50,087 nucleotides of DNA from a virus (Duplodnaviria; Heunggongvirae; Uroviricota; Caudoviricetes), in IMG/VR virus record IMGVR_UViG_2529292836_000016. One strand, written 5' to 3'. Below the pieces are notes generated by a model. It saw nothing but the letters and a program-made list of their open reading frames with translations. It did no database searches and was not told where the DNA came from. Positions 14,013 through 50,087 of the stretch are shown here, piece by piece; positions within the stretch are counted from its first letter, which is position 1; the number at the start of each line of letters is the position of its first letter. Made by a program: the position numbers and the translations under genes.

Positions 14013-14016
14013 TGGT

Positions 14017-14976
14017 TTACTCCTTGTCCATTGCGTACAGCCCATTAACCAGAGCAAACTGTGGCACCCCGTCCGCGATGAAAGTCGCATTAACTCCGCA
14101 GGCTTCGCGGATAGCGGGTGCCACAATCTCCGCCCCTCCACCGACAACCATCACCCGCCCGTAACCGGAAAAACCCGCCAGCGCGCGGATCACTCGTTGT
14201 TTCAGTGTCTCCTCCTTTTCACGAATAACCGCCATCAGGCTGTTGTAATGCGCGTCATTGTGAATGTGCTGGCGCAGCCAGGCTTCATCGTGACGGTGCT
14301 CAATAATGGTATTGGCGATGTGGTGACTGGTACGCATACCGTTAGTGGCCATCACCGACAGTACGGCATCGGCCATCAGGGAAACGCCTACGTGTGGATC
14401 GCAAAACACCTGGCTGATACCTGCCAGTTGTCCCTGAACCTTTGCCACATCCAGCGTGGTTCCGCCTAAATCCACAATCAGCAGGGATTCAAACGGACTC
14501 ATGTCAGCCAGTGCCTTAAAGCCAGCCGGAATGGATTCAGGCATAACCCGTACATTACGGATAGTGAATGCTTCGCCGTTCTGGTATTCCACCGGGCGCA
14601 TAACGTTCGCTTTTTTGCGGTTGATGTTGGCCATGTCCGGCTGTGCGTTTGTGTCGAAATACTCGCTCAGTGGCAGGGTGACAACCACATCCACCTCCTG
14701 TGGCGTGATGCCTGATTTGACCAGCGCGTGATGAATGGCAATGACATTCACATCACTGTACTGATATTGCGTGTCAGTCGTCTGGACAAAGCGATCGCTG
14801 ACCGGATCAAAACCATAGCGCACGCTATCAAGCATGTAGTTCGCGGGCTGCGTGCCACCGAACGGCGCAGACCATTCCGACTTGAAGCTGTTCGGGCTGA
14901 TGGCGTTGCGGCGTTCGCCGTTCTCAGTCCATGCCAGCTTGATGTTGGTGGAGCCGTCGTCGATACAAATTTTCAT
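14017..14976 (-). CDS. parM: ParM/StbA-family actin-like segregation ATPase
   Basis: 319 aa; 'ICIDDGSTNIKLAW', 'YSDVNVIAIHHAL', 'VMPESIPAG', 'LIVDLGGTTLD', 'VMVVGGGAE' match ParM (plasmid R1) motifs throughout. Confidence 0.85.
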   Translation of the reverse strand: MKICIDDGSTNIKLAWTENGERRNAISPNSFKSEWSAPFGGTQPANYMLDSVRYGFDPVSDRFVQTTDTQYQYSDVNVIAIHHALVKSGITPQEVDVVVTLPLSEYFDTNAQPDMANINRKKANVMRPVEYQNGEAFTIRNVRVMPESIPAGFKALADMSPFESLLIVDLGGTTLDVAKVQGQLAGISQVFCDPHVGVSLMADAVLSVMATNGMRTSHHIANTIIEHRHDEAWLRQHIHNDAHYNSLMAVIREKEETLKQRVIRALAGFSGYGRVMVVGGGAEIVAPAIREACGVNATFIADGVPQFALVNGLYAMDKE

Positions 14977-18917: not shown

Positions 18918-19748
18918 TTACTTCACGGGAACGAACGGAACAGCGGTGTTACTGGTCATGTATTGCGGCAGCGTGCCGTTCCATTTGTTGATTGCTTCCA
19001 GCTCCATAACGCCGGGATTCTGGCGCAGAGCTTCGCCGCGTAAACGAATGGCGTCGGCTTCAGCCTGGGCTTTTGTGCGAATGGCATCGGCCTGTCCGGC
19101 AGCTTCTGCGCGCAACATGTTGGCTTCTGCTTCGCGCTGCTTGACTTCCTGTTCGCGTTGCAGGGTTTTCTGGTTTGCCGTGACTTTGGCGTTAATGCTG
19201 TCGATAACGGTTGGCGGATATTCCGGTTTACCGACATAAGAGAGGCTCATGACCTGAATACCGATGGGGGTCATCTCTTCCTGAATATCTTTAAGTGCTG
19301 AATCCAGCAGTTCAGACTTACCACCGTCGATAAACTTATCGGTGGTCATTTTGCTGGCCAGTCGGTTGAGTGCATCGGCGATCTTCTGGCGCAGGTCAGT
19401 GTCGGTAATGTCGTCCACGCCTTTGCGGTAGGTCTGAAACACCGTGGTAACTTTGGATGGATCAACTTTGTAGGCCACGCCGATGTGATAGCCGATGGTT
19501 GTGCCGTCACTCATCTGGAAGTTGAACGGCTCATCGTAACTCTTCATTTGTTTGAAGGTCGGGAAGATGTAACCCTCTGTATTCCAGCCTGTCCAGTAGC
19601 GGCCAACGCCAACCACTTCACCGACGCCTTTGTCGTCGCCCAGTTTGTTGACTTTGATGCCCACATTACCTGGCTCAACGCGATCGCAACCAACCAGCAG
19701 GATGGCGGCAAAAAGCGGGAGAATCTGAAAGAGTCTGAATTTCTTCAT
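18918..19748 (-). CDS. SPFH/band-7 (HflC-like) domain lipoprotein
   Basis: 276 aa; signal peptide with lipobox 'LLVGC'; C-terminal Ala/Glu/Gln-rich coiled coil typical of SPFH proteins. Confidence 0.65.
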   Translation of the reverse strand: MKKFRLFQILPLFAAILLVGCDRVEPGNVGIKVNKLGDDKGVGEVVGVGRYWTGWNTEGYIFPTFKQMKSYDEPFNFQMSDGTTIGYHIGVAYKVDPSKVTTVFQTYRKGVDDITDTDLRQKIADALNRLASKMTTDKFIDGGKSELLDSALKDIQEEMTPIGIQVMSLSYVGKPEYPPTVIDSINAKVTANQKTLQREQEVKQREAEANMLRAEAAGQADAIRTKAQAEADAIRLRGEALRQNPGVMELEAINKWNGTLPQYMTSNTAVPFVPVK

Positions 19749-37339: not shown

Positions 37340-38470
37340 CTACAGTTTCATGATCTTGTTCGCTATTTTTTCGAAGTAAACCTCATTCTTAAGAAGAGTG
37401 ATATTGTTTGTTTGAACACCCAGACCACTGGAGGTTGACTGGAAGTTGAGTGAACCACTTATCACTGTGGACTTTCCTGATAAAAAGGAAATCAACTCCT
37501 TGGAAGATGGTGCCCACTCAGGGTTTAAGAGTAATGCAATATAGATATATGTCTTACGAAGCAATTGTTCTATATCTTTTTTATGCCCTGTAGTGTTTTG
37601 CTTACCTTTAATGCAAATAGATTTGATTATGAACTCATCAGGGCTGGTTAAAGGCGTTTTAAACTCACTCAGTGATCCATCGTTATGAATGACTTCATAA
37701 GGCAGCATAGATAAAATGATCAATGCAATCATTTTAGGATGATAAAGGTAGTTATCACGAATGATTTTTCCTGCCTTCATTGTATTGAGCGTTGTTTGAA
37801 TAAATACAAAAAGATATTCAGAGCAAAAGTAACAAAACACAAGCCAGGATAGGTCAATGGATGGAATGTTAATATCCTTAGGTAGTTTGTTTAGCCAGTA
37901 TTCAGACTTCAAAAAGGTCCTGATTTCAACAGTATATTCATGCATTTTTGCGCTGAAATCAAGCATTGCTACTTGACCTGATTGTTCCGTAACTGTGTGG
38001 TCTATAAATGTTAGTGTATTGCACATTTTATCCAGCGTGTTTTGAAAACAAGAAAGGAGTTCGGCATTATTATTACCATTAACCGCAGATGAAAGTTCAG
38101 TTTTAATAAATGCATCCAGTAGCATACAGATTTCTTTCGGAATGACATTTTTACGGGATTGCTGTGAATAGAAATGTACTGCCAGTAAATTAAAGGCAGT
38201 GCACTCCTTTTTTAACCATTGTTCGAGCACTGGGACGTGCTGAAAAAAATTGATATGCTTAGCAGTAGATGCTGATGGAGATAGTACATGAAGAATATCT
38301 ACAGCAGGCTTCATTTGCAATATTTGATCGGATTCGGTAGTCGTCATTAGTTCCAGTAATTGCTGTTCAGAAAATAGTTTAGACAGGTGATCAATGTCTT
38401 TTTGGTATTGATTAAGTTTTGTTAAATTCCCCGGTATACGGGTTACATTGTTTTTCATTTTCTCGAACAT
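37340..38470 (-). CDS. Hypothetical protein (AT-rich orphan)
   Basis: 376-aa ORF, very AT-rich; no recognisable motif. Confidence 0.5.
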   Translation of the reverse strand: MFEKMKNNVTRIPGNLTKLNQYQKDIDHLSKLFSEQQLLELMTTTESDQILQMKPAVDILHVLSPSASTAKHINFFQHVPVLEQWLKKECTAFNLLAVHFYSQQSRKNVIPKEICMLLDAFIKTELSSAVNGNNNAELLSCFQNTLDKMCNTLTFIDHTVTEQSGQVAMLDFSAKMHEYTVEIRTFLKSEYWLNKLPKDINIPSIDLSWLVFCYFCSEYLFVFIQTTLNTMKAGKIIRDNYLYHPKMIALIILSMLPYEVIHNDGSLSEFKTPLTSPDEFIIKSICIKGKQNTTGHKKDIEQLLRKTYIYIALLLNPEWAPSSKELISFLSGKSTVISGSLNFQSTSSGLGVQTNNITLLKNEVYFEKIANKIMKL

Positions 38471-38976: not shown

Positions 38977-40212
38977 TTAAAAGGAAATAAATAATGCCTT
39001 CCGCCGATGAATCAGTGTACTGATTTCTCGAAAATCAGCCTCAATACTACCAACATCACCAAAGACTTCACCACTAATCTCTCTTCGATTTTTCATGAAA
39101 TTGGTGCTTAATAAGCTTTCTTTTTTTAGTGTCACTAATTTTGGTTTTATATCGTTATAGAAATGCTTACGGCTTACCCTGATGCTATGAATCGAGTAGT
39201 AAACTGTTTTATACATCAAAAATATAAGTAACTGGCCGAGAAGATATTCTTTTTCAATGTATTTATATTGAGAGGATTTTTCGCGTTTCGCCAGGTAGAA
39301 AACATGAGGTGCGATGATGGTGGGGATGAAATCCAGTGCTGGAGAGGTTTTTGTTTTTTCTGTTTTTCTTCCGGATTGAAGATGTTGAAGTACAGAGTAT
39401 ACAATGCTTAATATTATGGCATTGCTTATATTATTAATTTCAGTTGGGTAAATATGCAGGTTGCTTATCAATTCTGAAAGGCAAAGTAAAACACCAGTGA
39501 TGTTGGGTTTTCTGCCAGAGATTGTGGTGCTGTTGAAAATGTGACGATTCTTACGACTTATATTGACAAGTTTATGAGTGCAGAACTCTATATGTTCGAC
39601 GATTTTATCTTGACTATTTTTAATGTATTTTGAAATGTTAGTGATCCGGCCATTCAACGTTAGTTCATCAAGCAATATATCATTTTTAATATTGCGAATT
39701 TCATCGCAATGTTCACATTGAGAAACTATCTCATGTAATACATAACTCGACGTATTGCGGGGTGACGCTGATATGTAATCTAAAATAGAAGGTTCGATTT
39801 TGATTTTTTGTTTGTATTTTTTAATGCACTGTTTGATTGTTTTTTGTAGAGTATTTGAGATGTGTTTTTTATATTCTTTTAGAAAATCTTGCTCTAAAAA
39901 GAGTGAGGAGAAGATCAACTGCTGGCGAGATAATTTAATCTCAGGCTTGATCAATTTAATCCGAAAAACTCTTCCCTCCAACTCATAGCTGAACATGGAA
40001 GATAAGTCATAGTGGGGTGATAAATGTTCGAGTAACGACATTCGTGTATTCATTAGCCGCTTGAATTTATGGTCAGCATACATAAGTGTTTTTTTTATTT
40101 GCTCATCATAAAGTGGGCCGATAGCGCAGTTGGCAATACTCATTCTATCCGGAGACCTCCAGTCAGCAGGGGAATCACATTGACGGTCATCATTACTATC
40201 AAAGGGCATCAA
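38977..40212 (-). CDS. Hypothetical protein (AT-rich orphan)
   Basis: 411-aa ORF, Lys/Ile/Asn-rich; no recognisable motif. Confidence 0.5.
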   Translation of the reverse strand: MMPFDSNDDRQCDSPADWRSPDRMSIANCAIGPLYDEQIKKTLMYADHKFKRLMNTRMSLLEHLSPHYDLSSMFSYELEGRVFRIKLIKPEIKLSRQQLIFSSLFLEQDFLKEYKKHISNTLQKTIKQCIKKYKQKIKIEPSILDYISASPRNTSSYVLHEIVSQCEHCDEIRNIKNDILLDELTLNGRITNISKYIKNSQDKIVEHIEFCTHKLVNISRKNRHIFNSTTISGRKPNITGVLLCLSELISNLHIYPTEINNISNAIILSIVYSVLQHLQSGRKTEKTKTSPALDFIPTIIAPHVFYLAKREKSSQYKYIEKEYLLGQLLIFLMYKTVYYSIHSIRVSRKHFYNDIKPKLVTLKKESLLSTNFMKNRREISGEVFGDVGSIEADFREISTLIHRRKALFISF

Positions 40213-40254
40213 CGTTGCCGATTATGGATCATGTCAGCTCCACACACCAGAACG

Positions 40255-40297
40255 GGTGATATATGGATCATCATTACCCCAACGGCAGTTTTACACC
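40255..40297. repeat. Copy 2 of the about 43-bp imperfect direct repeat
   Basis: 'ggtgatatatggatcatcattaccccaacggcagttttacacc'; pairs with 29468-29510. Confidence 0.6.
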
Positions 40298-40515
40298 ATG
40301 GCTAATATGGATGCTATCTTACTAAGATAATTGGTTTTTAGCGAGTGACGAGCCAGGTTGTGTCAGTCTGTCTCATGTCGATATTACGGGGATGATGCAA
40401 ACCTGAATGCTGCGATATTGGCGTGTCAGGGGAGGCATCTTACGGTATCATTTACCGCAATTTTTAAGATGCAAAGCCCTGCATCGCTAGCTTTTTCTTC
40501 AGACCAGGATGATTC

Positions 40516-42039
40516 ATGAACGACAAAATCAGTCAGGACACGATCAACAAAGCCCTGTGGGCCGCGTGTGATACGTTCCGTGGCACCATCAGTGCTGATA
40601 CCTATAAAGACTTTATCCTTACCATGCTGTTCCTCAAGTACATTTCAGATGTCTGGCAGGATCACTATGACGAATACAAAGAACAGTATGGCGATGCGCC
40701 GGAACTGATTGAAGCGATGATGGCCAACGAGCGTTTTGTACTGCCAAAAAGTGCCAGCTTTTATGCGCTGTACGAACGCCGCCATGAGCCGGGTAACGGT
40801 GAGCGTATCGATCAGGCGCTGCATGCGATTGAAGAAGCCAACGGCACCAAACTGAAAGATGCCGGGAAAAGCGTGTTCCAGGATATTTCGTTTAACACTG
40901 ACCGCTTGGGTGAAGAAAAACAGAAGAACACCATCCTGCGCCAGCTGCTGGAAGACTTTGCCGGTGAAGATCTTAACCTGAAGCCAAGCCGTGTAGGTAC
41001 GCTGGACGTTATCGGTAATGCCTACGAATATCTGATTAAAAACTTTGCCGCCAGCGGTGGGCAGAAAGCCGGGGAATTCTATACGCCGCCGGAAGTTTCG
41101 GACCTGATTGCAGAACTGCTCGATCCGCAACCGGGTGATACCATCTGTGACCCTGCCTGTGGTTCTGGTTCGTTGTTAATGAAGTGCGGGCGTAAGATTG
41201 TCTCCGGGCATGAAAGCCGTAACTATGCTTTGTTCGGTCAGGAAGCGATTGGCTCCACGTGGTCGCTGGCGAAAATGAACATGTTTCTTCACGGCGAAGA
41301 CAACCACAAAATCGAGTGGGGCGATACCATTCGTAACCCGAAGCTACTCGATAAAAATGGCGACCTGATGCTGTTTGATATCGTTACCGCTAACCCGCCG
41401 TTCAGTCTGGATAAGTGGGGCCATGATGAGGCCGAGAACGATAAGTTTGGTCGTTTCCGTCGCGGTGTACCGCCGAAGACTAAAGGAGATTACGCCTTTA
41501 TCTCGCATATGATAGAAACCCTGAAACCGGGAACGGGTCGTATGGGCGTAGTTGTGCCACACGGTGTGCTTTTCCGTGGCTCCAGCGAAGGTAAAATTCG
41601 CCAGAAACTGATCGACGAAAATTTGCTGGATGCGGTAATTGGTCTGCCGGAAAAACTGTTCTACGGTACGGGGATTCCGGCTGCGATTCTGATTTTCAAA
41701 AAGCAGAAAGTTGATGATAAGGTGCTGTTTATCGATGCCAGCCGTGAATTCAAGGCAGGTAAAAACCAGAACCAGCTTAGCGAAGAAAACATTAAGAAAA
41801 TCGTCAAGACCTACCGTGATGGCGATAACGTCGAGAAATACGCCTATCTTGCCAGCCTGAAAGAGATTCAGGACAACGATTACAACCTCAATATTCCGCG
41901 CTATGTCGATACCTTTGAAGAAGAGGAAGAGATCGATTTGCTGGTCGTTCACGCTGAGCGGGAGGAATTGAAAGCGGAACTGGCGAAGCTGGAAACGGAG
42001 ATGGAAGGGTATTTGAAGGAGTTGGGTTATGGCGTTTAA
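40516..42039 (+). CDS. hsdM: Type I restriction-modification methyltransferase subunit
   Basis: 507 aa; 'DPACGSGSLL' AdoMet motif I and 'NPPF' N6-adenine motif IV; overlaps hsdS start. Confidence 0.9.
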   Translation: MNDKISQDTINKALWAACDTFRGTISADTYKDFILTMLFLKYISDVWQDHYDEYKEQYGDAPELIEAMMANERFVLPKSASFYALYERRHEPGNGERIDQALHAIEEANGTKLKDAGKSVFQDISFNTDRLGEEKQKNTILRQLLEDFAGEDLNLKPSRVGTLDVIGNAYEYLIKNFAASGGQKAGEFYTPPEVSDLIAELLDPQPGDTICDPACGSGSLLMKCGRKIVSGHESRNYALFGQEAIGSTWSLAKMNMFLHGEDNHKIEWGDTIRNPKLLDKNGDLMLFDIVTANPPFSLDKWGHDEAENDKFGRFRRGVPPKTKGDYAFISHMIETLKPGTGRMGVVVPHGVLFRGSSEGKIRQKLIDENLLDAVIGLPEKLFYGTGIPAAILIFKKQKVDDKVLFIDASREFKAGKNQNQLSEENIKKIVKTYRDGDNVEKYAYLASLKEIQDNDYNLNIPRYVDTFEEEEEIDLLVVHAEREELKAELAKLETEMEGYLKELGYGV

Positions 42040-43252
42040 TTACGAGATAAATCAACTAGAATTGATGCAGGCAAGAATTAAAAGCGTGCCTCACGGGTGG
42101 CAATTCACTTATGTAGGTAAGGCGTTTTGCATCCGTAATAACTTACGGAAGCCGATTAGCGAAGAAGAACGTAGTATGAGTCCGGGCAACTATCCTTATT
42201 ACGGACCGACTAAGATCCAAGGTTATATTGGCACTTTTGAACAAGATGGAAGTTATGCTTTGATTGGAGAAGATGGTGATCACTTCCTGAAGTTTGAAAA
42301 ACATTCAATGACGCAGTTGGTGGATGGGAAATGTACAGTTAATAACCATGCTCATATTATTGAAGGAACGAAAGAGGCCTCAAGAGAATGGTTTTACTAC
42401 TATTTTATGCATAGGGACATTTTCAGTTTCTTGAGTCGGCAAGGGGCGGGTAGGTACAAGCTAAACAAAGCATCCCTTGAAAAAATGCCTTTGTTGCTCC
42501 CTCCTATCGTTGAGCAAAAGAAAATCGCCCAAATCCTGTCAACCTGGGATAAGGCGATTTCGGTGACGGAAAAGCTTCTCGCCAACAGCCAGCAGCAGAA
42601 AAAAGCCCTGATGCAGCAATTGCTTACCGGGAAGAAACGGTTGCTGGATGAGAATGGGGTGAGGTTTAGTGGGGAGTGGTGTACGTGCACTTTGTCTGAA
42701 GTAGCACATATTATTATGGGATCATCACCTAAATCCGAAGCCTACAACGATAATGGCTTAGGTTTGCCATTAATACAGGGTAATGCCGATATAAAGTGCC
42801 GAGTTTCATGTCCCAGAGTTTATACGTCTGACATTACGAAAGAATGTACTCCTGGAGATATTCTTCTAAGTGTCAGGGCACCTGTAGGTACTGTTGCACT
42901 TTCTCAACATAAAGCATGTATAGGGCGTGGTATATCGGCTATAAAATCCAAGAGAAAAATGAGTCAATCATTTCTTTATCAATGGTTTCTTTGGTTTGAA
43001 CCAAAATGGTGTTACCTATCACAAGGTAGCACATTTGAATCAATTAATAGTGATGATATAAAGACATTAAAATTATCAGTGCCCAATTTTGAAGAACAAC
43101 AAAAAATTGCCGCCGTTCTGTCCGCAGCCGATGCTGAAATATCCACGCTGGAGAAAAAACTCGCCTGCCTGAGAGATGAGAAAAAAGCCCTGATGCAACA
43201 GCTACTGACTGGCAAACGTCGTGTTAAGGTCGATGAGGCGGTTGCCGAATGA
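42029..43252 (+). CDS. hsdS: Type I restriction-modification specificity subunit (two TRDs)
   Basis: 407 aa; conserved repeats 'KKALMQQLLTGKKRL' (central) and 'KKALMQQLLTGKRRV' (C-terminal) flanking two variable domains. Confidence 0.85.
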   Translation: MAFNYEINQLELMQARIKSVPHGWQFTYVGKAFCIRNNLRKPISEEERSMSPGNYPYYGPTKIQGYIGTFEQDGSYALIGEDGDHFLKFEKHSMTQLVDGKCTVNNHAHIIEGTKEASREWFYYYFMHRDIFSFLSRQGAGRYKLNKASLEKMPLLLPPIVEQKKIAQILSTWDKAISVTEKLLANSQQQKKALMQQLLTGKKRLLDENGVRFSGEWCTCTLSEVAHIIMGSSPKSEAYNDNGLGLPLIQGNADIKCRVSCPRVYTSDITKECTPGDILLSVRAPVGTVALSQHKACIGRGISAIKSKRKMSQSFLYQWFLWFEPKWCYLSQGSTFESINSDDIKTLKLSVPNFEEQQKIAAVLSAADAEISTLEKKLACLRDEKKALMQQLLTGKRRVKVDEAVAE

Positions 43253-43932
43253 AACTGACGAAAAGCGGGCCGCTGATTGACCGGGAAATCGACTGGCTGG
43301 AAGAGGTGTTGCTGAAATACGGCAATGATGACTCTGTGCTCTGTTTCTCTGAGCTGGATGGCTTTCTGACAGCGATTGTCTCTGGCCCGAATATGATCCC
43401 CCCTAATACCTGGCTTAGTGCTATCTGGGGGCGAGGTGATTACCACCCTCGCTGGACTACTGAAAAAGAGATGACGCGTTTTGTGGGGCTGTGTTTTCAG
43501 CATATGAACGATATCGCTGGCTGCCTGTATGAGGCCCCTGAACAGTTTGAACCGATTTTCAATGGACGTGAGGTGAAGGGGAAGACATATACCATCGTCG
43601 AAGAGTGGTGTTTCGGGTATATGAAAGGTCGGTCTCTGGATGACTGGTCAGCCTTGCCAGAGGCCTTACGTCCCTCGCTGGAGGCGATAGCCCTTCATGG
43701 TATTGAAAAGAACTTCCCAGTGGTTGAGAAAATGTCACCTGTTCAATTTGAACAGAGTATTACTCTCATTCAGCCTGCGGCACTGGCGCTTTACCAGCAC
43801 TGGTTGTCGGTGAGAATGTCAGAGGCATCATCCCGGCCTGTTCCCGTGAAGGGGGCAGAAAAACTGCCCGGTCGTAATGACCCGTGTCAGTGTGGCAGTG
43901 GTAAAAAATTTAAAAAGTGCTGCCTGCACTGA
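43249..43932 (+). CDS. YecA-like protein (UPF0149-type domain with C-terminal SEC-C metal-binding motif)
   Basis: 227 aa; C-terminal 'GRNDPCQCGSGKKFKKCCLH' is a SecA-type SEC-C motif; ATGA overlap with hsdS stop. Domain call from memory, not searched. Confidence 0.6.
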   Translation: MKLTKSGPLIDREIDWLEEVLLKYGNDDSVLCFSELDGFLTAIVSGPNMIPPNTWLSAIWGRGDYHPRWTTEKEMTRFVGLCFQHMNDIAGCLYEAPEQFEPIFNGREVKGKTYTIVEEWCFGYMKGRSLDDWSALPEALRPSLEAIALHGIEKNFPVVEKMSPVQFEQSITLIQPAALALYQHWLSVRMSEASSRPVPVKGAEKLPGRNDPCQCGSGKKFKKCCLH

Positions 43933-43954
43933 CAAAGCGGAAGGGGGCTTGCTC

Positions 43955-45739
43955 ATGGCAGTGAACAATCTGGATCGTTCCCGGTGGTACATGGGAAATG
44001 TTCTCTGGTTCGGAGGCTACAACAGCAAAACGGATCGGGAGAATAACTTTGGCTTTCTCTTATCAGAGAATGGTAATGAGCTGTTTTTTCATAAGAATGA
44101 GATAAGCCGGAACTATACACCCGCTGACAATGCACCTGTGCTGTTCAGGGAAGGTACAGGTAAAAATGGTAAGCCTACGGCTTTTAATGTTCACATTCTT
44201 GATAAAACAGATGAGGAGACGGCTGAGCTCCTTATTGAATATCTCCGGGCTATTATTGAGGAGGGCGTTGATTTCGCTCGTTGGCGTTATCGTGACTGCG
44301 TTATTAATTTTCTCACTCAGTCCTTTGGCGAAAGGGCTATAATTCGGTTAGTTACCAGTGATATAGCTGCTACAAAAGTCTTGCCGCTATTTTTAAAATC
44401 ACGTAACTACGATAACCAGTTTGCACTTTTCGCCTCTGATAAGAATTTTGATGATTTGACCGCACAACAAATATCTCCTGCGGTCATGCCTTCGTCATTT
44501 ATCGATAATAACATTGATCAGTTCGCTGTTTGGGTGAAAAGGTGTTCTGCGGCTACGGATTGCCAGGGGGCTTCAACATCGGACATCATCAATGAATTAC
44601 TCAGCCATATATCTATAAGTGCTATTCTCTACCTGGCATTTTACGATTGTATAAGCAGCGAGCGGATTCTTGAACATCGGCATGATGATATAGAGAATTT
44701 TGTTCGACGTAGTTTCACGAAAAATAAAATGGATATACAACCATTTGTCCGTGATGCCTATCAGCAGAAATTCTCATCGAGAGAGCAATTTTATAAACAT
44801 TCCGTGATTAGTCCTTTTGTCAATAATTATTTGATTAAACAGAAGATGTTTAGGAAAGATTTCAGTTTTGTTAATGATATTGAGTCGAATACTGAAATTT
44901 CTTCTGACCCTGAATACTTTATTCTGAGTAAATTGTTACCGCTGATTGGGCGTAACGATGAACAGTCCGTTCTGAGTATTATTCTGCATGAGATATGGCA
45001 GGGGGTGTTGTCGGGTAAAATCCCGGTAAGCCATCCTTCTGTTTTCAAATTGTTCCCACAGTGTAGCTCATTGAAAATTCGTTCCCGGAATTTAAAATTA
45101 TCCTGTGAGGCATTTCACTGGAATGCAAAACAACCTGACGGAACGATAGAGAAAAAATTCCTTTGTCGTTCGAAAATCTGCCATGATCCGCAGGTACTGC
45201 CCGACCTCAGTCGGGATTACATCGACTTCACTATTTATGACTGGCTTTCCCACTATGGCATGACCTATCTGATTGCAGGCGAACCTTCTAAGCGGGATTT
45301 CCCAATTAAACTGGCTGGGTATTTCAATCGTATCAGAGAATTACATTCCCGCTTGCATTGCCGAAGTTGTGGGGTGCTGATGGTTCCAGATATGAAATAT
45401 GCTCGTGTGGAAGTCAGCGTCTGGGATACAAAGTCGAAAGGATTTGTGAAAAAACCTTTCCAGGCCGCGTATCGCCTGACCGTCTTTAAATGTGCCAGTC
45501 ATTCGTGCGAACAGTTTGGTATCGGGCATTACATTAATCACTGTATTGGTTACAAATGCAGCGAAATAATTGACGCCAGGGATTTGCATGAAAAATGTTC
45601 AGAAGGACGATTTATTTGTGCATCCTGTGGTTCCTGCTGTACGACGCATCAGGAGAAATTTGGTAATGTAAACAAGGGCGAAACAGAACAGGTCAAGTAC
45701 AATCGCCTTTATCGGGACTCGCCGTTCTTTTCATCATAA
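43955..45739 (+). CDS. Large protein with cold-shock-like N-terminal OB fold and Cys/His-rich C-terminal putative zinc-binding module
   Basis: Track ORF 43877..45739 trimmed to ATG at 43955 (GGAAGGGGG RBS). N-terminus 'GNVLWFGGYNSKTDRENNFGFLLSENGNELFFHKNEI...KPTAFNVHIL' follows the CSD pattern; C-terminus 'CRSCG...CASHSC...GHYINHC...CASCGSCC'. Confidence 0.7.
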   Translation: MAVNNLDRSRWYMGNVLWFGGYNSKTDRENNFGFLLSENGNELFFHKNEISRNYTPADNAPVLFREGTGKNGKPTAFNVHILDKTDEETAELLIEYLRAIIEEGVDFARWRYRDCVINFLTQSFGERAIIRLVTSDIAATKVLPLFLKSRNYDNQFALFASDKNFDDLTAQQISPAVMPSSFIDNNIDQFAVWVKRCSAATDCQGASTSDIINELLSHISISAILYLAFYDCISSERILEHRHDDIENFVRRSFTKNKMDIQPFVRDAYQQKFSSREQFYKHSVISPFVNNYLIKQKMFRKDFSFVNDIESNTEISSDPEYFILSKLLPLIGRNDEQSVLSIILHEIWQGVLSGKIPVSHPSVFKLFPQCSSLKIRSRNLKLSCEAFHWNAKQPDGTIEKKFLCRSKICHDPQVLPDLSRDYIDFTIYDWLSHYGMTYLIAGEPSKRDFPIKLAGYFNRIRELHSRLHCRSCGVLMVPDMKYARVEVSVWDTKSKGFVKKPFQAAYRLTVFKCASHSCEQFGIGHYINHCIGYKCSEIIDARDLHEKCSEGRFICASCGSCCTTHQEKFGNVNKGETEQVKYNRLYRDSPFFSS

Positions 45740-45808
45740 GTCTTCGTTCATTTTGAGTATGTCCGTAAGGACATACAGTTTCACCTCTTAGCCAAGAAGG
45801 ATTACCGG

Positions 45809-48800
45809 GTGGATAAGCACTACCAACCTAAATTCCAGGAAGAATACAGCGCCAAAATTCCGGCACTGACGTTACTGACCAGCCTCGGCTGGACGTTTTT
45901 ATCTCCGAAACAGATTATGGATTACCGGGGCTATAAACAGGATGAGGTGGTGCTGCGTCCGGTTCTGCGTGAAGAGCTGTCGAAGCGTTCCTTTATGGCG
46001 GGTGGCAAAACCTGCCAGTTATCGGAAAAAGCACTGGATAACCTGATATCACAGGTCTGTTCTCCGGCGCTGAATGAAGGGCTGCTCAAAGCCAATGAAC
46101 GGATGTATAACCATCTGCTCTACGGTATCACCGTCACGGAGTTTGTCGATGGCAAGAAGGTCAACCCCCCCATTGCGCTGATCGACTGGGAACATCCGGA
46201 AAATAACCAGTTCCATTTTACCGAAGAATTTACGGTATTGCGGTCAGGCGGTGTCGAAACCCGCAGGCCGGATATTGTATGTTTTGTGAATGGTATCCCG
46301 CTGGCCGTCATTGAAGCGAAAAGCCCGGCGGGTCACGGCAAGAAAGGGCCAACCATTGACGAAGGGATATCCCAGAGTATCCGCAATCAGCTCAACGACG
46401 AAATCCCGCAGCTGTTTGCTTACAGCCAGATATTACTGTCGATTAACGGGCATGACGGGCGCTACGGTACCTGTCATACACCAATGAAATTCTGGGCGGC
46501 ATGGCGCGAAGAAGATATTACTTACGCGCAGATGTATGCGCTGCGCAACCATAAGTTATCGACTGAACAAATTCATGCGTTGTTTGATCATCGTCCTTCA
46601 GTCGATCTCAACTGGTATCAACAGTTAATCGATGGGGGGGAACTGGCAGTCAGCGGGCAGGATAAGCTGCTCATCAGTCTGCTTTCACCGGAACGTCTGC
46701 TGGAGATGACCCGCTTCTTCACCCTGTTTGATAAAAAAACCGGAAAAATTGTTGCCCGCTATCAGCAGGTGTTCGGGATAAAAAGACTGCTGGAACGCAT
46801 CAGTACCCGCAGACCAGACGGGGGCAGGGAAGGGGGGGTGATCTGGCATACCACGGGGTCAGGTAAATCTTACACCATGGTGTTCCTCAGCAAGGCGCTG
46901 ATTCTTCATGACAGCCTGAAGCGGTGTCGTATCGTGGTGGTGACGGACCGTATCGATCTTGAAGAACAGCTCAGCAATACCTTTGCATCCGGCGGCGAGT
47001 TGGCCGGGAAAAAAGACAAAGCCAATGCAATGGCGACATCCGGGCAGATGCTGGCGAAACAGATTGGCTCCGGTAAAGAACGCATCATTTTCACCCTAAT
47101 CCAGAAATTTAATTCAGCGACAAAACTTCCTGAATGCGTCAATACCAGCCCCGATATCATCGTTCTGATTGATGAAGGACACCGTAGCCAGGGTGGTGAG
47201 AACCATGTGCGAATGAAACTGGCACTGCCGAACGCCGCCTTTGTAGCATTTACTGGTACGCCATTGCTAAAAGAAGATAAGACCACCAATAAATTCGGAC
47301 CGATTGTCCACGCTTATACCATGCAGCGAGCGGTAGAAGATAAAGCCGTTACACCTTTGCTGTATGAAGAACGTATTCCCGACCTTGAGGTTAACGATCG
47401 GGCAATAGATGCCTGGTTTGATCGTATTACCGATGGGTTAAGCGAAGCGCAAAAAGCCGACCTTAAGCGTAAATATGCCCGTAAAGGTGAGGTTTATAGT
47501 GCAGATGATCGCATCCGTCTGATCGCACTCGATATCGCCACGCACTTCTCGAAGAATATTGATGAGGGACTGAAAGGCCAGCTTGCCTGCGACAGCAAGA
47601 TTTCCGCCATCAAATATAAAAAGTATCTTGATGAAGCCGGGTTGTTTGAGTCAGCTGTAGTTATCAGCCCGCCGGATACCCGGGAAGGGAATACTGAGGT
47701 GGATGAAAGCAAACTGCCGGAAGTGACGAAATGGTGGAAAGATAACGTCGGCACGCAGGATGAGTCTGTGTATACCCGCAATATCATCAGTCGTTTCGAT
47801 ACCGATGAGAAGCTCAAATTGCTGATAGTCGTTGATAAACTGCTCACCGGGTTTGATGAGCCGAAGAATACCGTGCTGTATATCGACAAGCCGCTTAAGT
47901 CCCACAACCTTATCCAGGCGATTGCGCGGGTGAACCGACTGCATCCACTAAAAAAGTTCGGTCTGCTGATTGATTATCGCGGTATTCTGGCTGAGCTGGA
48001 CACGACTATCGGCAAATATCAGGACCTCGCCTCCCGAACTCAGGGCGGATACGACATCAAAGATATTGACGGGCTGTACAGCGCCATGAGCTCTGAATAC
48101 AAGCGCCTGCCGCATCTGTATAACCAGCTGTGGGCCATATTTGCTGGTGTCAAAAACAAAAATGATACTGAGCAGTTACGTGCGGTACTGGTGCCTAAAA
48201 TGGAAGAACGTGACGGAGAGATGGTCGATATCCATCAGAAAACCCGTGATGATTTCTTCGAGGCGTTAACGGCCTTTGCCGGATGCCTGAAAGTGGCACT
48301 GCAGTCCGCCACCTTCTTCACCGACAAGAGCTTTACGGAACAAGACCGAAATCTCTATAAAGAAACCGTAAAACAGATGTCCAGCCTGCGCCAGTGGGCG
48401 ATGCAGGTAAGTGGAGAGCAGGTCAATTATGACGACTACGCTGAGCAGGTGAAAAAACTGCTGGATAAGCATGTCACCGGCGTTGAGGTTCGTGAACCGG
48501 ATGGCGTGTATGAAGTCGGTAAAATGGGCAAGAGCGAAAAGCCCGAAGAGTGGGACAACAATAAAACCCGCAATGAAACCGACATCATTAAAACCCGTGT
48601 GACAAAGATGATTGAGCAGGAGCTGCGTGATGACCCGTATGCTCAGGAAGCCTTTTCAAAACTCCTGCGTATGGCTATTGAAGAGGCTGAAAAACTGTTC
48701 GACCATCCGTTGAAACAGTATCTCTTGTTCCGTGAATTTGAAGAACAGGTTGAAGCCCGTAAGCTCAGCGATATCCCGGATGCACTGGCGGTAAACAAGC

Positions 48801-49093
48801 ATGCTCAGGCGTATTACGGTGTATTTAAAAAAGAGCTACCTGAGGTTTTTGCGGTAAACGACGTTCAGGTGCAGGATAAGTGGACGAAGCTGGCCTTTGA
48901 AGTGGACAGCATTATCGTTAGAGCGGTGGAAGAAAACTCCCTGAACCCTCAGGATATTGAGAAAGCCGTTAAGACTAATCTGTTACCGCTGCTGTTTACG
49001 GCCTGCCGGGAGATGGGTGCCGGAATGAATCAGGTAAACCGTATCGTGGAAACTATCATCCAGATCCTGCGCGTTGGTTTGATGAAATCATGA
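45809..49093 (+). CDS. hsdR: Type I restriction endonuclease/helicase subunit
   Basis: 1094 aa; Walker A 'TTGSGKS', 'DEGHRSQ' DEAD-box-like motif; probable GTG start. Confidence 0.9.
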   Translation: MDKHYQPKFQEEYSAKIPALTLLTSLGWTFLSPKQIMDYRGYKQDEVVLRPVLREELSKRSFMAGGKTCQLSEKALDNLISQVCSPALNEGLLKANERMYNHLLYGITVTEFVDGKKVNPPIALIDWEHPENNQFHFTEEFTVLRSGGVETRRPDIVCFVNGIPLAVIEAKSPAGHGKKGPTIDEGISQSIRNQLNDEIPQLFAYSQILLSINGHDGRYGTCHTPMKFWAAWREEDITYAQMYALRNHKLSTEQIHALFDHRPSVDLNWYQQLIDGGELAVSGQDKLLISLLSPERLLEMTRFFTLFDKKTGKIVARYQQVFGIKRLLERISTRRPDGGREGGVIWHTTGSGKSYTMVFLSKALILHDSLKRCRIVVVTDRIDLEEQLSNTFASGGELAGKKDKANAMATSGQMLAKQIGSGKERIIFTLIQKFNSATKLPECVNTSPDIIVLIDEGHRSQGGENHVRMKLALPNAAFVAFTGTPLLKEDKTTNKFGPIVHAYTMQRAVEDKAVTPLLYEERIPDLEVNDRAIDAWFDRITDGLSEAQKADLKRKYARKGEVYSADDRIRLIALDIATHFSKNIDEGLKGQLACDSKISAIKYKKYLDEAGLFESAVVISPPDTREGNTEVDESKLPEVTKWWKDNVGTQDESVYTRNIISRFDTDEKLKLLIVVDKLLTGFDEPKNTVLYIDKPLKSHNLIQAIARVNRLHPLKKFGLLIDYRGILAELDTTIGKYQDLASRTQGGYDIKDIDGLYSAMSSEYKRLPHLYNQLWAIFAGVKNKNDTEQLRAVLVPKMEERDGEMVDIHQKTRDDFFEALTAFAGCLKVALQSATFFTDKSFTEQDRNLYKETVKQMSSLRQWAMQVSGEQVNYDDYAEQVKKLLDKHVTGVEVREPDGVYEVGKMGKSEKPEEWDNNKTRNETDIIKTRVTKMIEQELRDDPYAQEAFSKLLRMAIEEAEKLFDHPLKQYLLFREFEEQVEARKLSDIPDALAVNKHAQAYYGVFKKELPEVFAVNDVQVQDKWTKLAFEVDSIIVRAVEENSLNPQDIEKAVKTNLLPLLFTACREMGAGMNQVNRIVETIIQILRVGLMKS

Positions 49094-49845
49094 GTGAAAA
49101 AGAGTCGCCAGCAATGAAAGCGTTACGCATTGTTTATGGTGATGAGGTCATCACCGTACAGTGTGTTCCGCGTCAGGTCGTAAAGGGCAGGGTGCTCATC
49201 AAGGTTTATCCGGACTGCCGGGTTGTGGCCTCTGTACCGCCTGAAACACCGGAGCACGAGGTATTGTCTGCGCTGAAAAAACGAGGGCGCTGGATATACC
49301 AGCAACTGCGTGATTTCAGGGAGCAACAGACACACATTGTTCCGCGTCAGTATGTCAGCGGAGAAAGCCATTATTATCTCGGTAAGCAATATCAGTTGAA
49401 AGTGACAGAAGACGCTACTGTGCCGCAACGAGTGAAAATGTTGCGTGGGCGTCTGGAAGTGACTGTCAGACACAAATCGGCAGAAAAGATTAAAGCCTTG
49501 CTGGCTGAATGGTATCGGGAACGTGCCAGAGATGTTTTTCAGCGCAGGCTTGATTTACTGATTCCGCAGACCCTTTGGGTCAGTGAGCGTCCTCCGATAC
49601 GTCTGCGGGCGATGCAAACGCAATGGGGCAACTGTTCAGCAAAAGGCTGTCTGACCCTGAATCCATGGCTGGTTAAGGCATCCTCAGAATGTATCGATTA
49701 TGTTTTGCTACATGAGTTATGCCATGTGGCTGAGCACAACCACAGCGAGGAGTTTTACCGTCTGATGGGGCAGGTTATGCCGGGCTGGGAAAAGGTTAAG
49801 AAGCGACTGGATGGTATGGCTGGGATGTTGTTGGCAGATATGTAG
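49090..49845 (+). CDS. DUF45/YgjP-like (WLM-type) zinc metallopeptidase
   Basis: 251 aa; 'LLHELCHVAEHNHSEEF' HExxH zinc motif; ATGA overlap with hsdR stop. Confidence 0.65.
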   Translation: MSEKESPAMKALRIVYGDEVITVQCVPRQVVKGRVLIKVYPDCRVVASVPPETPEHEVLSALKKRGRWIYQQLRDFREQQTHIVPRQYVSGESHYYLGKQYQLKVTEDATVPQRVKMLRGRLEVTVRHKSAEKIKALLAEWYRERARDVFQRRLDLLIPQTLWVSERPPIRLRAMQTQWGNCSAKGCLTLNPWLVKASSECIDYVLLHELCHVAEHNHSEEFYRLMGQVMPGWEKVKKRLDGMAGMLLADM

Positions 49846-49876
49846 TTTCTAACTTATTCCAATGGGCTCATTTGTC

Positions 49877-50087
49877 GGTGATGCTGCCAACTTACTGATT
49901 TAGTGTATGATGGTGTTTTTGAGGTGCTCCAGTGGCTTCCATTTCCATCAGATGTCCTTCCTGCTCCGCTACTGAAGGCGTGGTGCGTAACGGCAAAAGC
50001 ACTGCCGGACATCAGCGCTATCTCTGCTCTCACTGCCGTAAAACATGGCAACTGCAGTTCACTTACACCGCTTCTCAACCCGGTACG
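49877..50087 (+). mobile_element. IS1 insertion sequence, left end (element continues past window end)
   Basis: Left inverted repeat 'GGTGATGCTGCCAACTTACTGAT' at 49877-49899 followed by the insA frame. Confidence 0.85.
49932..50087 (+). CDS. insA: IS1 InsA (N-terminal part, truncated by window end)
   Basis: GTG start; translation '[52 protein letters not shown]' matches IS1 InsA zinc-finger region. Confidence 0.85.

What the first reader, a model, noticed from the sequence alone, without database searches (positions are those of the whole stretch)
43249..45739. Two-gene insert (YecA-like SEC-C protein + cold-shock-domain/Zn-cluster protein) between hsdS and hsdR
Seen: hsdM-hsdS-X-Y-hsdR-DUF45 on one strand; X overlaps hsdS by ATGA; Y starts 23 nt after X with a strong RBS; hsdR follows 70 nt later. 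Established: the prr locus places the latent anticodon nuclease PrrC between hsdS and hsdR, where the R-M complex holds it in check. Inference: X and Y may be an R-M-coupled backup effector or sensor pair. I do not recognise this CSD-plus-Cys/His-cluster architecture as a described defence protein.
Basis: partly seen in the sequence, partly recalled or inferred. Interest (0 to 1): 0.85.

Follow-up and report, generated by a model that had tools for sequence, protein, structure and literature searches.

The report
Two separate genes nested in restriction operon
Two extra genes sit inside a mobile E. coli restriction-modification operon, but they are independent add-ons rather than a pair: one is a restriction-specific copy of the chaperone-like YecA, and the other belongs to an unstudied family of nucleic-acid-binding zinc proteins that repeatedly turns up inside bacterial anti-phage operons.

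Summary
The layout is real: hsdM-hsdS-X-Y-hsdR-M48 peptidase on one strand, carried on an E. coli pipolin island.

**X** (227 aa) is a YecA paralogue, 58% identical to the core YecA.
- Its clade (67-90% identity) was found directly after hsdS in every case examined, with or without Y.
- It matches PADLOC candidate PDC-S12, which is untested. That model scores housekeeping YecA even higher.

**Y** (594 aa) has three parts: a cold-shock domain, a helical region, and a Cys/His-rich C-terminal domain with no structural match in the PDB.
- At 30-40% identity, and without X, Y homologues sit between hsdS and hsdR in Vibrio and Photobacterium.
- They also follow hsdS of an unrelated Type I family, and lie inside or beside BREX.
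- Of the 30 lineages with at least 6 kb of flank, 15 are linked to Type I R-M or BREX.
- In Providencia the same slot after X holds a GmrSD enzyme.

X and Y are therefore independent embedded modules. Y is most likely an autonomous defence-associated protein in a variable cargo slot. X is an accessory of this R-M family. A PrrC-like latent effector role is unlikely for Y and remains open for X. Both mechanisms are inferred, not shown.

Verdict: a new member of a known kind (defence candidates embedded in R-M/BREX). Interest is moderate.

The parts
40516..42039 (+). hsdM, Type I R-M methyltransferase subunit
   Evidence: Pfam N6_Mtase 4.1e-107 and HsdM_N
42029..43252 (+). hsdS, specificity subunit
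   Evidence: Pfam Methylase_S 9.7e-38, two stretches
43249..43932 (+). X: R-M-embedded YecA paralogue (227 aa). The UPF0149 domain is aa 15-185 (nt 43291-43803) and the SecA-type metal-binding SEC-C motif is aa 209-225 (nt 43873-43923). The start overlaps the hsdS stop (ATGA).
   Evidence: Pfam UPF0149 4.6e-30 and SEC-C 9.2e-8. NCBIfam PRK10396 2.8e-104. PADLOC PDC-S12 3.1e-97. 58% identical to core YecA. dN/dS 0.11-0.18.
43939..43947 (+). Shine-Dalgarno-like GGAAGGGGG upstream of Y
   Evidence: Read directly from the sequence
43955..45739 (+). Y: 594-aa protein with an N-terminal cold-shock domain, a helical middle and a C-terminal zinc-cluster domain
   Evidence: AlphaFold2 model, pLDDT 87. 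79 homologue clusters. dN/dS roughly 0.16-0.20 whole-gene.
43985..44197 (+). Y cold-shock / OB domain (aa 11-81). RNP1-like FGF and RNP2-like FFH are retained, with a 7-residue insertion after strand 1.
44213..45019 (+). Y helical middle region (aa 87-355); the most variable part, greatly expanded in the 850-1000-aa relatives
   Evidence: Secondary structure, alignment. Only a marginal trigger-factor C-terminal match, E 0.003.
45050..45649 (+). Y Cys/His-rich C-terminal domain (aa 366-565). Invariant in the family: C370, C384, C404, C409, C469, C472, C513, C518, H529, C530, C535, C548, C555, C558, C561, C562. Invariant across the wider superfamily: C469, C472, C513, Y526, C530, C535, D540, R542, C555, C558.
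45757..45776 (+). 8-bp hairpin (GUAUGUCC-GUAA-GGACAUAC) in the Y-hsdR spacer; it belongs to the Y-carrying segment and is absent from X-only cassettes
   Evidence: RNA fold, -22.7 kcal/mol for the 86-nt stretch, z -2.56. Spacer comparison.
45809..49093 (+). hsdR, restriction/translocase subunit (GTG start)
   Evidence: Pfam HSDR_N, SWI2_SNF2, T1R_D3-like, ResIII; RefSeq annotation
49090..49845 (+). YgjP-like (DUF45) M48/WLM/SprT-like metallopeptidase; its start overlaps the hsdR stop; conserved partner of this R-M family
   Evidence: Pfam YgjP-like 3.1e-58. The same gene follows hsdR in Vibrio, Photobacterium and a metagenomic cassette.

Best explanation
The locus is a mobile Type I restriction-modification cassette, hsdM-hsdS-[X]-[cargo slot]-hsdR-YgjP peptidase. 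It rides on an E. coli pipolin and also on Klebsiella conjugative plasmids. X and Y are two independent embedded accessory genes, not a pair.

X belongs to a YecA paralogue clade that, in every case examined, lies directly after hsdS and is translationally coupled to it. By analogy with YecA/AscA, its UPF0149 domain would bind client proteins and its SecA-type metal-binding domain would bind ribosomes and SecB. X most likely serves as an accessory or adaptor of this R-M family, in assembly, control of restriction, or sensing (inferred).

Y occupies a variable slot between X and hsdR. It belongs to an uncharacterised family that is repeatedly nested in methylation-based immune operons (Type I R-M and BREX). 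It most likely acts autonomously as a complementary defence protein. In that model its cold-shock domain binds single-stranded phage RNA or DNA, and its multi-zinc C-terminal domain, with invariant Y526, D540 and R542, acts as effector or second recognition module (inferred; no activity shown).
For: **Shown**
- Gene layout and domain content.
- The island is a pipolin with other defence cargo: piPolB, recombinases, DUF262 x2 and Hhe. PMC11551731 reports Type I R-M and PDC-S12 as frequent pipolin cargo exchanged with plasmids.
- X without Y occurs in ~219 E. coli records and ~213 plasmids, always annotated directly after hsdS.
- X-clade members at 71-81% identity are all directly after hsdS, followed by Y (P0225), by nothing (P0233), or by GmrSD (P0222).
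- X-clade identity drops from >=67% to <=59% for core YecA orthologues; X is 58% identical to this species' core YecA.
- Y without X:
  - hsdM-hsdS-Y-hsdR-YgjP in V. vulnificus and Photobacterium damselae. This is the same R-M family: HsdM 74%, HsdR 59%, Y 38% identical.
  - hsdR-hsdM-hsdS-Y in an unrelated Type I family: HsdM 28% identical.
  - hsdS fragment-RhuM-Y-PDDEXK_4.
  - BREX, as pglX-Y-pglZ-brxL or brxL-Y.
- Census: of 30 Y lineages (80% identity clusters) with at least 6 kb of flank, 7 are beside Type I R-M and 8 beside BREX.
- Two further lineages lie beside McrBC-like genes, a WYL regulator and a dynamin, or near a STAND NTPase.
- Both genes are under purifying selection.
- The Y cold-shock domain keeps its nucleic-acid-binding aromatic residues.
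- The CSD-plus-Cys-domain architecture persists in relatives with 29-40% domain identity.
- Intact Y and R-M genes coexist with a broken X in Citrobacter braakii (L013) and two metagenomic contigs (L058, L059).

**Precedent**
- Embedded genes in Type I R-M and BREX are often autonomous defences: TgvAB (PMC11411939) and the HEC/PDC candidates (bioRxiv 10.1101/2024.01.29.577857).
Against: - No experiment bears on either gene.
- Y has no recognisable catalytic motif, and its C-terminal domain has no structural neighbour. 'Effector' is therefore a guess; it could be purely a binding or regulatory protein.
- About half of the Y lineages show no R-M or BREX gene within the flank. One, in Erwinia, sits between ordinary regulators with no obvious defence context.
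- For X, the PDC-S12 model does not separate it from housekeeping YecA, so that label adds no functional evidence.
- X could be a hitch-hiking paralogue kept for reasons unrelated to restriction.
- The context census rests on contigs selected by two or three peptide patterns, and on my own phmmer probes for only Type I and BREX genes. It is a sample, not a survey.
Confidence: 0.6

Rival explanations
1. PrrC- or Ronin-like guard. X and/or Y are latent toxic effectors or sensors held inactive by the HsdMS or HsdR complex. A phage anti-restriction protein (Ocr, ArdA, Stp-like) that disables the R-M enzyme releases them.
For: - Position between hsdS and hsdR, the same place as prrC.
- Payne et al. 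describe PrrC as almost exclusively embedded in Type I R-M.
- In Ronin, a small effector is suppressed by HsdMS and triggered by Ocr and ArdA (bioRxiv 10.1101/2023.04.06.535777).
- X lies directly after hsdS with a 4-nt overlap in every case examined, which fits a stoichiometric physical partner.
- BREX and Type I R-M are both known targets of Ocr-type DNA mimics (established knowledge), so a Y that senses loss of methylation-based defence could serve both.
Against: - Y is found with two unrelated Type I families, at several positions in BREX, and in loci where no R-M or BREX gene was detected. This is unlike PrrC's near-exclusive embedding.
- Neither X nor Y matches any PADLOC model other than PDC-S12 (plus weak SEC-C-motif matches to E1/E2 models, for X), so there is no PrrC or other known abortive-infection effector match.
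- X is 58% identical to a non-toxic housekeeping protein.
- X and Y are not co-inherited.
Confidence: 0.2
2. Regulatory or maintenance accessories of the R-M enzyme itself, with no separate immune function. X would be a chaperone or adaptor for assembly or controlled proteolysis of Hsd subunits, perhaps with the downstream M48 peptidase. Y would be an RNA-binding post-transcriptional regulator of hsdR, for example delaying restriction when the cassette enters a new host.
For: - YecA/AscA is reported to be a holdase-type chaperone that binds ribosomes and SecB through its metal-binding domain (bioRxiv 10.1101/2020.07.21.215244).
- X is confined to one R-M family, which also always carries the YgjP-like peptidase.
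- Y sits immediately upstream of hsdR, and the Y-carrying segment brings a hairpin into the Y-hsdR spacer.
- Cold-shock domains commonly act as RNA chaperones or antiterminators (established knowledge).
Against: - Cassettes with neither X nor Y, or with only one, appear intact, so neither gene is needed for the core enzyme.
- Y occurs after brxL, between pglX and pglZ, after hsdS in R-M-S gene order, and outside R-M entirely. This does not fit a regulator of hsdR.
- A 594-aa protein with about four zinc sites is large for an RNA chaperone.
Confidence: 0.15
3. Cargo that benefits the mobile element rather than defending the host. Y and/or X would act as an anti-defence or establishment factor, or be neutral hitch-hikers sitting in a recombination hot spot next to the hypervariable hsdS.
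For: - All close copies are on mobile elements: pipolins, conjugative plasmids, and an SXT-like ICE hot spot.
- The hsdS-X region is mosaic, with recombination breakpoints inside X.
Against: - Purifying selection over long divergence.
- Tight same-strand operon placement inside immune operons in many unrelated lineages.
- Known anti-restriction genes usually sit in plasmid leading regions rather than inside R-M operons (established knowledge).
Confidence: 0.05

Closest known systems
Phage-defence candidates found by 'guilt-by-embedding' in Type I R-M, BREX and DISARM (Payne et al. 2024, bioRxiv 10.1101/2024.01.29.577857; PADLOC PDC systems)
   Same: Both genes are nested in a Type I R-M operon. 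X matches PDC-S12 at 3.1e-97. Y homologues are also nested in BREX, which is exactly the signal that study used.
   Different: Y matches no PADLOC 2.0.0 model. PDC-S12 is untested as far as the searched literature shows. Its model scores housekeeping YecA (366 bits) above X (323 bits).
YecA / AscA of E. coli (UPF0149 domain plus SecA-like metal-binding domain)
   Same: Same two domains over the full length, 58% identity. The C-terminal motif is CxCGSGKKFKxCC in both (CQCGSGKKFKKCC in X, CPCGSGKKFKQCC in YecA).
   Different: X is a separate clade (>=67% identity within the clade, <=59% to core orthologues). It is carried on mobile elements and directly follows hsdS in every case examined. Related genomes keep their own core yecA a few kb from the island.
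PrrC anticodon nuclease in the EcoprrI locus, and Ronin (RonA with HsdMS)
   Same: Gene position inside or next to hsdMS; a possible backup to a Type I enzyme.
   Different: No sequence match. X and Y lack the ABC-ATPase/ACNase architecture of PrrC and the 61-aa membrane peptide of RonA. Y is not restricted to Type I R-M.
TgvAB, BrxU and GmrSD Type IV enzymes embedded in Type I R-M or BREX
   Same: They occupy the same kind of slot. In Providencia a GmrSD gene sits exactly where Y sits, directly after an X-clade gene. TgvAB works independently of HsdR (PMC11411939). This is the model for an autonomous, complementary module.
   Different: Y has no DUF262/DUF1524 or other nuclease domain.
Proteins pairing a cold-shock domain with zinc modules: eukaryotic Lin28 (CSD plus CCHC knuckles), and CoCoNuT Type IV systems with CSD-fused CnuB (PMC11090510)
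   Different: Y's C-terminal domain is about 200 aa with roughly four sites and does not resemble CCHC knuckles or any PDB fold. Y has no McrB GTPase or McrC nuclease. The resemblance is in architecture only.

Membership tests
YecA family (UPF0149 + SEC-C) | Full-length match to the UPF0149 domain plus a C-terminal SecA-type Cys-rich metal-binding motif | tested here: met
   Pfam PF03695 4.6e-30 and PF02810 9.2e-8. NCBIfam PRK10396 347.9 bits against a 149-bit cut-off.
Housekeeping yecA orthologue | Orthologous identity and conserved chromosomal position (yecA beside tyrP, next to the tRNA-Leu site) | tested here: not met
   58% identity to core YecA. The core yecA is present separately, beside tyrP, in strains carrying the same island. 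X-clade members lie after hsdS on pipolins and plasmids.
PADLOC PDC-S12 (phage defence candidate) | Match to the PDC-S12 profile | tested here: met
   3.1e-97. However, core YecA scores higher at 1.7e-110, so the profile does not define an R-M-specific group.
PADLOC PDC-S12 (phage defence candidate) | Demonstrated anti-phage activity | not testable with these tools
   The full-text search found the term 'PDC-S12' in four papers, none with it in the title or abstract. The one read mentions it only as a detected system.
Cold-shock domain | Five-stranded OB barrel with RNP1 (FGF) and RNP2 (FxH) aromatic residues | tested here: met
Cold-shock protein (Csp), as RefSeq names Y | Small (~70 aa) single-domain protein | tested here: not met
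   Y is 594 aa and the CSD is 12% of it. The database name is misleading.
PrrC-type R-M-coupled anticodon nuclease | ABC-ATPase-like N-domain plus C-terminal anticodon nuclease domain | tested here: not met
   No PADLOC, Pfam or NCBIfam match of that kind for X or Y.
PrrC-type R-M-coupled anticodon nuclease | Location between hsdS and hsdR | tested here: met
PrrC-type R-M-coupled anticodon nuclease | Near-exclusive embedding in Type I R-M | tested here: inconclusive
   Met for the X clade in all cases examined. Not met for Y: 7 of 30 lineages in Type I R-M, 8 in BREX, 15 in neither.
PrrC-type R-M-coupled anticodon nuclease | Physical masking by the R-M complex and activation by a phage anti-restriction factor | not testable with these tools
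   Needs co-purification and Ocr/ArdA/Stp induction experiments.
GmrSD / BrxU / TgvAB embedded Type IV enzymes | DUF262 (GmrSD_N) and DUF1524 (GmrSD_C) domains | tested here: not met
   No such Pfam match in X or Y. A true GmrSD occupies the equivalent slot in Providencia.
Type I restriction-modification system (host operon) | HsdM, HsdS and HsdR genes with their characteristic domains | tested here: met
   Activity was not tested.
Pipolin (host island) | Primer-independent PolB gene, tyrosine recombinases, integration at tRNA-Leu between pgsA and yecA | tested here: inconclusive
   A type-B DNA polymerase gene (32442-35042) and recombinases are annotated in the identical strain. The tRNA-Leu/pgsA/yecA position is seen in related strains and matches PMC11551731. 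In this window a P2-like prophage lies between, and no tRNA gene falls within the window. The polymerase was not itself compared with piPolB.

The most novel reading that the evidence does not exclude
Y founds a new class of immune protein. A cold-shock domain reads out single-stranded phage RNA or DNA, and a previously unseen multi-zinc fold (with invariant Tyr/Asp/Arg) executes or signals the response. Y would plug into methylation-based systems (Type I R-M, BREX) as a second layer against phages that evade or inhibit them. X would be a dedicated chaperone-like adaptor that couples a Type I enzyme to the ribosome or to a client protein.
Probability: 0.3. Interest if true: 0.75.

Novelty: new member of a known kind. 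Interest (0 to 1): 0.5.

Why it matters
The cassette is common in clinically relevant bacteria. It occurs in about 9% of complete E. coli genomes (485 of 5426) and on several hundred Klebsiella conjugative plasmids. A function for X or Y would therefore bear on phage therapy and on plasmid spread.

Y is a well-conserved, confidently modelled protein whose C-terminal domain has no solved structural relative. It is repeatedly nested in two different methylation-based defence systems. That makes it a concrete, easily clonable candidate for a new defence activity.

There is also a practical warning. The PDC-S12 label in defence-system surveys will fire on every housekeeping yecA.

Tried and rejected
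- **Profile against PDB sequences.** Only cold-shock proteins were found, plus a marginal trigger-factor C-terminal match (E 0.003) that I do not regard as significant.
- **BLASTP of the Y N-terminus against CspA.** No alignment.
- **Family libraries.** PADLOC, NCBIfam and PHROGs gave nothing for Y.
- **Pfam on ten distant relatives of the C-terminal domain.** Hoped to reveal informative fusions; it found only another CSD and a sub-threshold HARP match.
- **Literature.** Searches for YecA with Type I restriction, for cold shock with hsdS and hsdR, and for cold shock domain with BREX found nothing about these genes. The supplements of the embedding preprint held no mention of PDC-S12, YecA or cold shock.
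- **Promoter-like sites.** Across 40000-50087 they are no more frequent than in shuffled sequence, so I make no claim about internal promoters.
- **Positive selection on X.** Considered and rejected: its extra divergence comes with high dS and a mosaic pattern, which points to recombination rather than adaptive change.
- **Recent capture of the neighbouring yecA.** Considered and set aside: 58% identity and a separate clade argue for an old split.

Full report
**Observation.** The six ORFs lie on the + strand as described.
- hsdM is 40516-42039 and hsdS is 42029-43252.
- X is 43249-43932 and Y is 43955-45739.
- hsdR is 45809-49093 and the YgjP-like/DUF45 M48 peptidase is 49090-49845.
- The hsdS stop and the X start overlap as ATGA.
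- Y starts 22 nt after X, behind GGAAGGGGG. hsdR (GTG start) follows 69 nt after Y.
- Pfam confirms the three Hsd subunits and the peptidase. It gives UPF0149 + SEC-C for X and a sub-threshold CSD for Y.
- The Y start at 43955, not the longer ORF from 43877, is supported in three ways. Homologues begin MAVN, one homologue uses GTG at that codon, and the RefSeq annotation of the identical strain uses it.

**Where the window comes from.**
- The window is 100% identical to E. coli NCCP 13717 over the 12-kb stretch compared.
- Its first 25 kb is a P2-like prophage.
- From about 25.4 kb onward it is an island with two integrases, a type-B DNA polymerase, DUF2787, a WYL-type regulator and this R-M cassette.
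- In sister strains, DUF262 genes and Hhe follow.
- In those strains the island sits at tRNA-Leu between pgsA and yecA.
- That is the pipolin site described in PMC11551731, which lists Type I R-M and PDC-S12 among frequent pipolin cargo exchanged with plasmids.
- The X-Y region matches 485 of 5426 complete E. coli genomes. In 199 of them at least 80% of the query is covered.

**X.**
- X is a full-length YecA-family protein: NCBIfam PRK10396 at 2.8e-104 and PADLOC PDC-S12 at 3.1e-97.
- It is 58% identical to the core YecA encoded a few kb from the island in sister strains.
- The PDC-S12 profile scores that housekeeping protein higher (366 bits against 323 for X). The PADLOC label therefore only says 'YecA family'.
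- PDC systems come from a guilt-by-embedding screen of BREX, DISARM and Type I R-M operons and are untested candidates.
- In the large protein collection, X's relatives form a clade at 67-90% identity. Identity then drops to 59% or less for core YecA orthologues of Enterobacterales.
- Every clade member whose context I could read lies directly after hsdS:
  - E. coli X-only cassettes, hsdMS-X-hsdR-M48.
  - The listed E. coli and plasmid rows with X-clade-level identity and an annotated feature under the match.
  - P0233 (71% identical), hsdMS-X-hsdR-YgjP.
  - P0225 (77%), hsdMS-X-Y-hsdR-YgjP.
  - P0222 (81%, Providencia), an hsdS remnant, then X, then GmrSD.
- X alleles are more diverged than the flanking hsdM and hsdR. 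They have high dS, dN/dS of 0.11-0.18, and a mosaic identity profile. This indicates recombination under purifying selection.
- YecA (AscA) has been reported to be a chaperone whose metal-binding domain binds SecB and ribosomes.
- X is thus a conserved, R-M-specific accessory of one Type I family. What it does there is not known.

**Y: structure.**
- With a 51-sequence alignment, AlphaFold2 gives a confident model (pLDDT 87).
- Residues 11-81 are a cold-shock/OB barrel.
  - The family profile hits bacterial cold-shock proteins at E 2.4e-9, with the Trp of strand 1, the RNP1 FGF and the RNP2 FVH aligned. There is a 7-residue insertion after strand 1.
- Residues 87-355 are helical and variable.
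- Residues 366-565 are a beta-rich domain with 15 invariant Cys and one invariant His, plus invariant E385, D448, N458, R459, Y526, D540 and R542.
- A phmmer scan of 1.84 billion representatives finds the domain in 405 clusters (54 at E <= 1e-30).
- Relatives with 29-40% domain identity, 250-1300 aa long, mostly begin again with one or two cold-shock domains. They have no other recognised domain.
- Across this superfamily the strictly conserved core is C469, C472, C513, Y526, C530, C535, D540, R542, C555 and C558.
- The pairing of a CSD with this zinc domain is therefore ancient and conserved. Its activity is unknown.

**Y: context.**
- Close copies (>=91% identity) are all in the same hsdMS-X-Y-hsdR-M48 cassette, in Klebsiella, Buttiauxella, Franconibacter, Citrobacter, Enterobacter and gut metagenomes. 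They are also on 132 plasmids, 129 of them Klebsiella and nearly all conjugative. These count as one event.
- The informative cases are the distant ones, none of which has X:

| Organism or source | Arrangement | Notes |
|---|---|---|
| V. vulnificus, Photobacterium damselae | hsdM-hsdS-Y-hsdR-YgjP | Y 38% identical. Same R-M family: HsdM 74%, HsdR 59% identical |
| Metagenomic contigs | hsdR-hsdM-hsdS-Y | Unrelated Type I family; HsdM 28% identical |
| Endozoicomonas | hsdS fragment-RhuM-Y-PDDEXK_4 | |
| V. cholerae island | Y plus an hsdR remnant | |
| Metagenomic contig | Six-gene insert between hsdS and hsdR that includes Y | |
| Tritonibacter, Cognatishimia, several metagenomic contigs | Y directly after brxL, between pglX and pglZ, or before pglZ | BREX |

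- Clustering Y at 80% identity gives 51 lineages. Of the 30 with at least 6 kb of flank, 7 touch Type I R-M and 8 touch BREX.
- Two of the remaining lineages lie beside McrBC-like genes, a WYL-WCX regulator and a dynamin (Pseudomonas), or near a STAND NTPase (Comamonas).
- Others lie in an SXT-like ICE hot spot after Fic, or beside Mrr and a NERD-kinase-helicase giant.
- One, in Erwinia, has no visible defence context.
- For a random gene, the chance of lying within a few kb of a Type I or BREX operon is of the order of a percent (my estimate). A rate of 50% is therefore a strong association.
- Y is under purifying selection in all three domains (dN/dS 0.06-0.28).

**Interpretation.** X and Y are not a pair.
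- X occurs without Y in about as many E. coli genomes and in more plasmids.
- Y occurs without X everywhere outside Enterobacterales.
- The place after X can be empty, hold Y, or hold GmrSD.
- A few cassettes have an intact Y and a broken X (L013, L058, L059). Sequencing error cannot be excluded for these.
- The cassette is best read as hsdMS + X (a family-specific accessory) + a variable cargo slot + hsdR + peptidase.
- Y behaves like other autonomous modules nested in Type I R-M and BREX, such as TgvAB, BrxU/GmrSD and the HEC/PDC candidates. It does not behave like PrrC, which is almost confined to Type I R-M.
- I therefore favour Y as an independent, complementary defence-associated protein. 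In that view its CSD binds single-stranded nucleic acid and its zinc domain provides the second function.
- The first part rests on context. The mechanism is inference only.
- For X, an adaptor or chaperone role tied to HsdS/HsdM/HsdR (or to the M48 peptidase) is the most economical reading. A Ronin- or PrrC-like sensor role cannot be excluded.

**Comparison with what is known, and novelty.**
- Genes nested in Type I R-M operons are a known kind: PrrC, RloC and RloF, TgvAB, and Payne et al.'s 3,231 embedded families.
- X's family is already catalogued as PDC-S12, though never tested as far as the searched literature shows.
- Y is absent from PADLOC 2.0.0, NCBIfam, PHROGs and the searchable literature. 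RefSeq mislabels it 'cold-shock protein'. I could not check newer PADLOC or DefenseFinder releases.
- The nearest architectural analogies are Lin28 (CSD plus zinc knuckles) and the CSD-bearing CoCoNuT systems, which are predicted to target RNA. Y is a member of neither.

**Verdict.** The finding is real and worth an experiment, but it is one more embedded candidate rather than a new principle. Novelty: new member of a known kind. Interest: 0.5.

Noticed in passing
window 49090-49845: The YgjP-like (DUF45) M48 peptidase, with weak WLM/SprT-like matches, overlaps the hsdR stop. It follows hsdR in every cassette of this R-M family seen, from E. coli to Vibrio and Photobacterium (45% identical). 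SprT/WLM proteases remove DNA-protein adducts (established knowledge), so it might clear stalled HsdR or control restriction. No PADLOC or NCBIfam match.
   Followed up: partly
window 37340-38470 and 38977-40212 (- strand): Two low-GC (0.33-0.36) genes of 376 and 411 aa lie divergently upstream of hsdM. They have no Pfam, PADLOC or NCBIfam match and are conserved in the same place in X-only pipolin variants (L002, L003). Function unknown.
   Followed up: partly
PADLOC model PDLC04917 (PDC-S12); L001 41261-41926: The PDC-S12 profile scores housekeeping E. coli YecA (366 bits) above the R-M-embedded copies (323-331 bits). Defence-system surveys that report PDC-S12, for example in Klebsiella genomes, are probably counting the core yecA gene.
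   Followed up: yes
L117/L118 7001-9723 (Providencia): An X-clade gene, directly after an hsdS remnant, is followed by a 644-aa GmrSD (GmrSD_N + GmrSD_C) in the position Y occupies here. This shows that the space after X is an exchangeable cargo slot.
   Followed up: partly
window 45757-45776: A perfect 8-bp hairpin with a GUAA loop lies in the Y-hsdR spacer. It is part of the Y-bearing segment and is absent from the 52-nt spacer of X-only cassettes. The fold z-score is modest (-2.56). It may be an RNA processing or stability element, or an attenuator.
   Followed up: partly
window 1-25065: A P2-like prophage lies in tandem with the pipolin. It carries non-structural cargo: a DUF3800 gene at 12663-13469, ParM-like and partition genes at 13701-14976, and an SPFH-domain gene at 18918-19748. 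Cargo regions of P2-like phages are known to hold defence genes (established knowledge). No tRNA gene falls within the window.
   Followed up: no
L004 8866-9270 (E. coli strain 32-4) and hits H56-H60: Several E. coli genomes keep only the last 210-270 nt of Y in front of an intact hsdR-M48. In strain 32-4 an IS3 element has replaced hsdM, hsdS, X and most of Y, leaving an orphan hsdR.
   Followed up: partly
L013 9282-9975; L058 4444-4773; L059 69-746: In Citrobacter braakii ATCC 51113 and two metagenomic contigs, X is split over frames or truncated while Y, hsdM and hsdR are intact. This is either real decay of X or assembly error.
   Followed up: no
window 43877-43954: RefSeq records disagree on the Y start. 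Some annotate a 620-aa product from the ATG at 43877, overlapping X by 56 nt (for example WP_235838383.1). Others annotate 594 aa from 43955 (WP_005758470.1). Homologues support 43955.
   Followed up: yes
L019 3913-7788 (Pseudomonas sp. v388): A distant Y homologue lies about 2 kb downstream of an AAA protein (754 aa) and a DUF2357 + PD-(D/E)xK protein (535 aa), which together look McrBC-like. A WYL-WCX regulator and dynamin-like genes are on the other side. Whether that McrBC is of the CSD-bearing CoCoNuT type was not examined.
   Followed up: no
L064 1278-15134 (metagenomic contig): A cassette of the same R-M family carries five genes between hsdS and hsdR (574, 587, 636, Y at 565, and 448 aa). 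The four non-Y genes were not identified.
   Followed up: no
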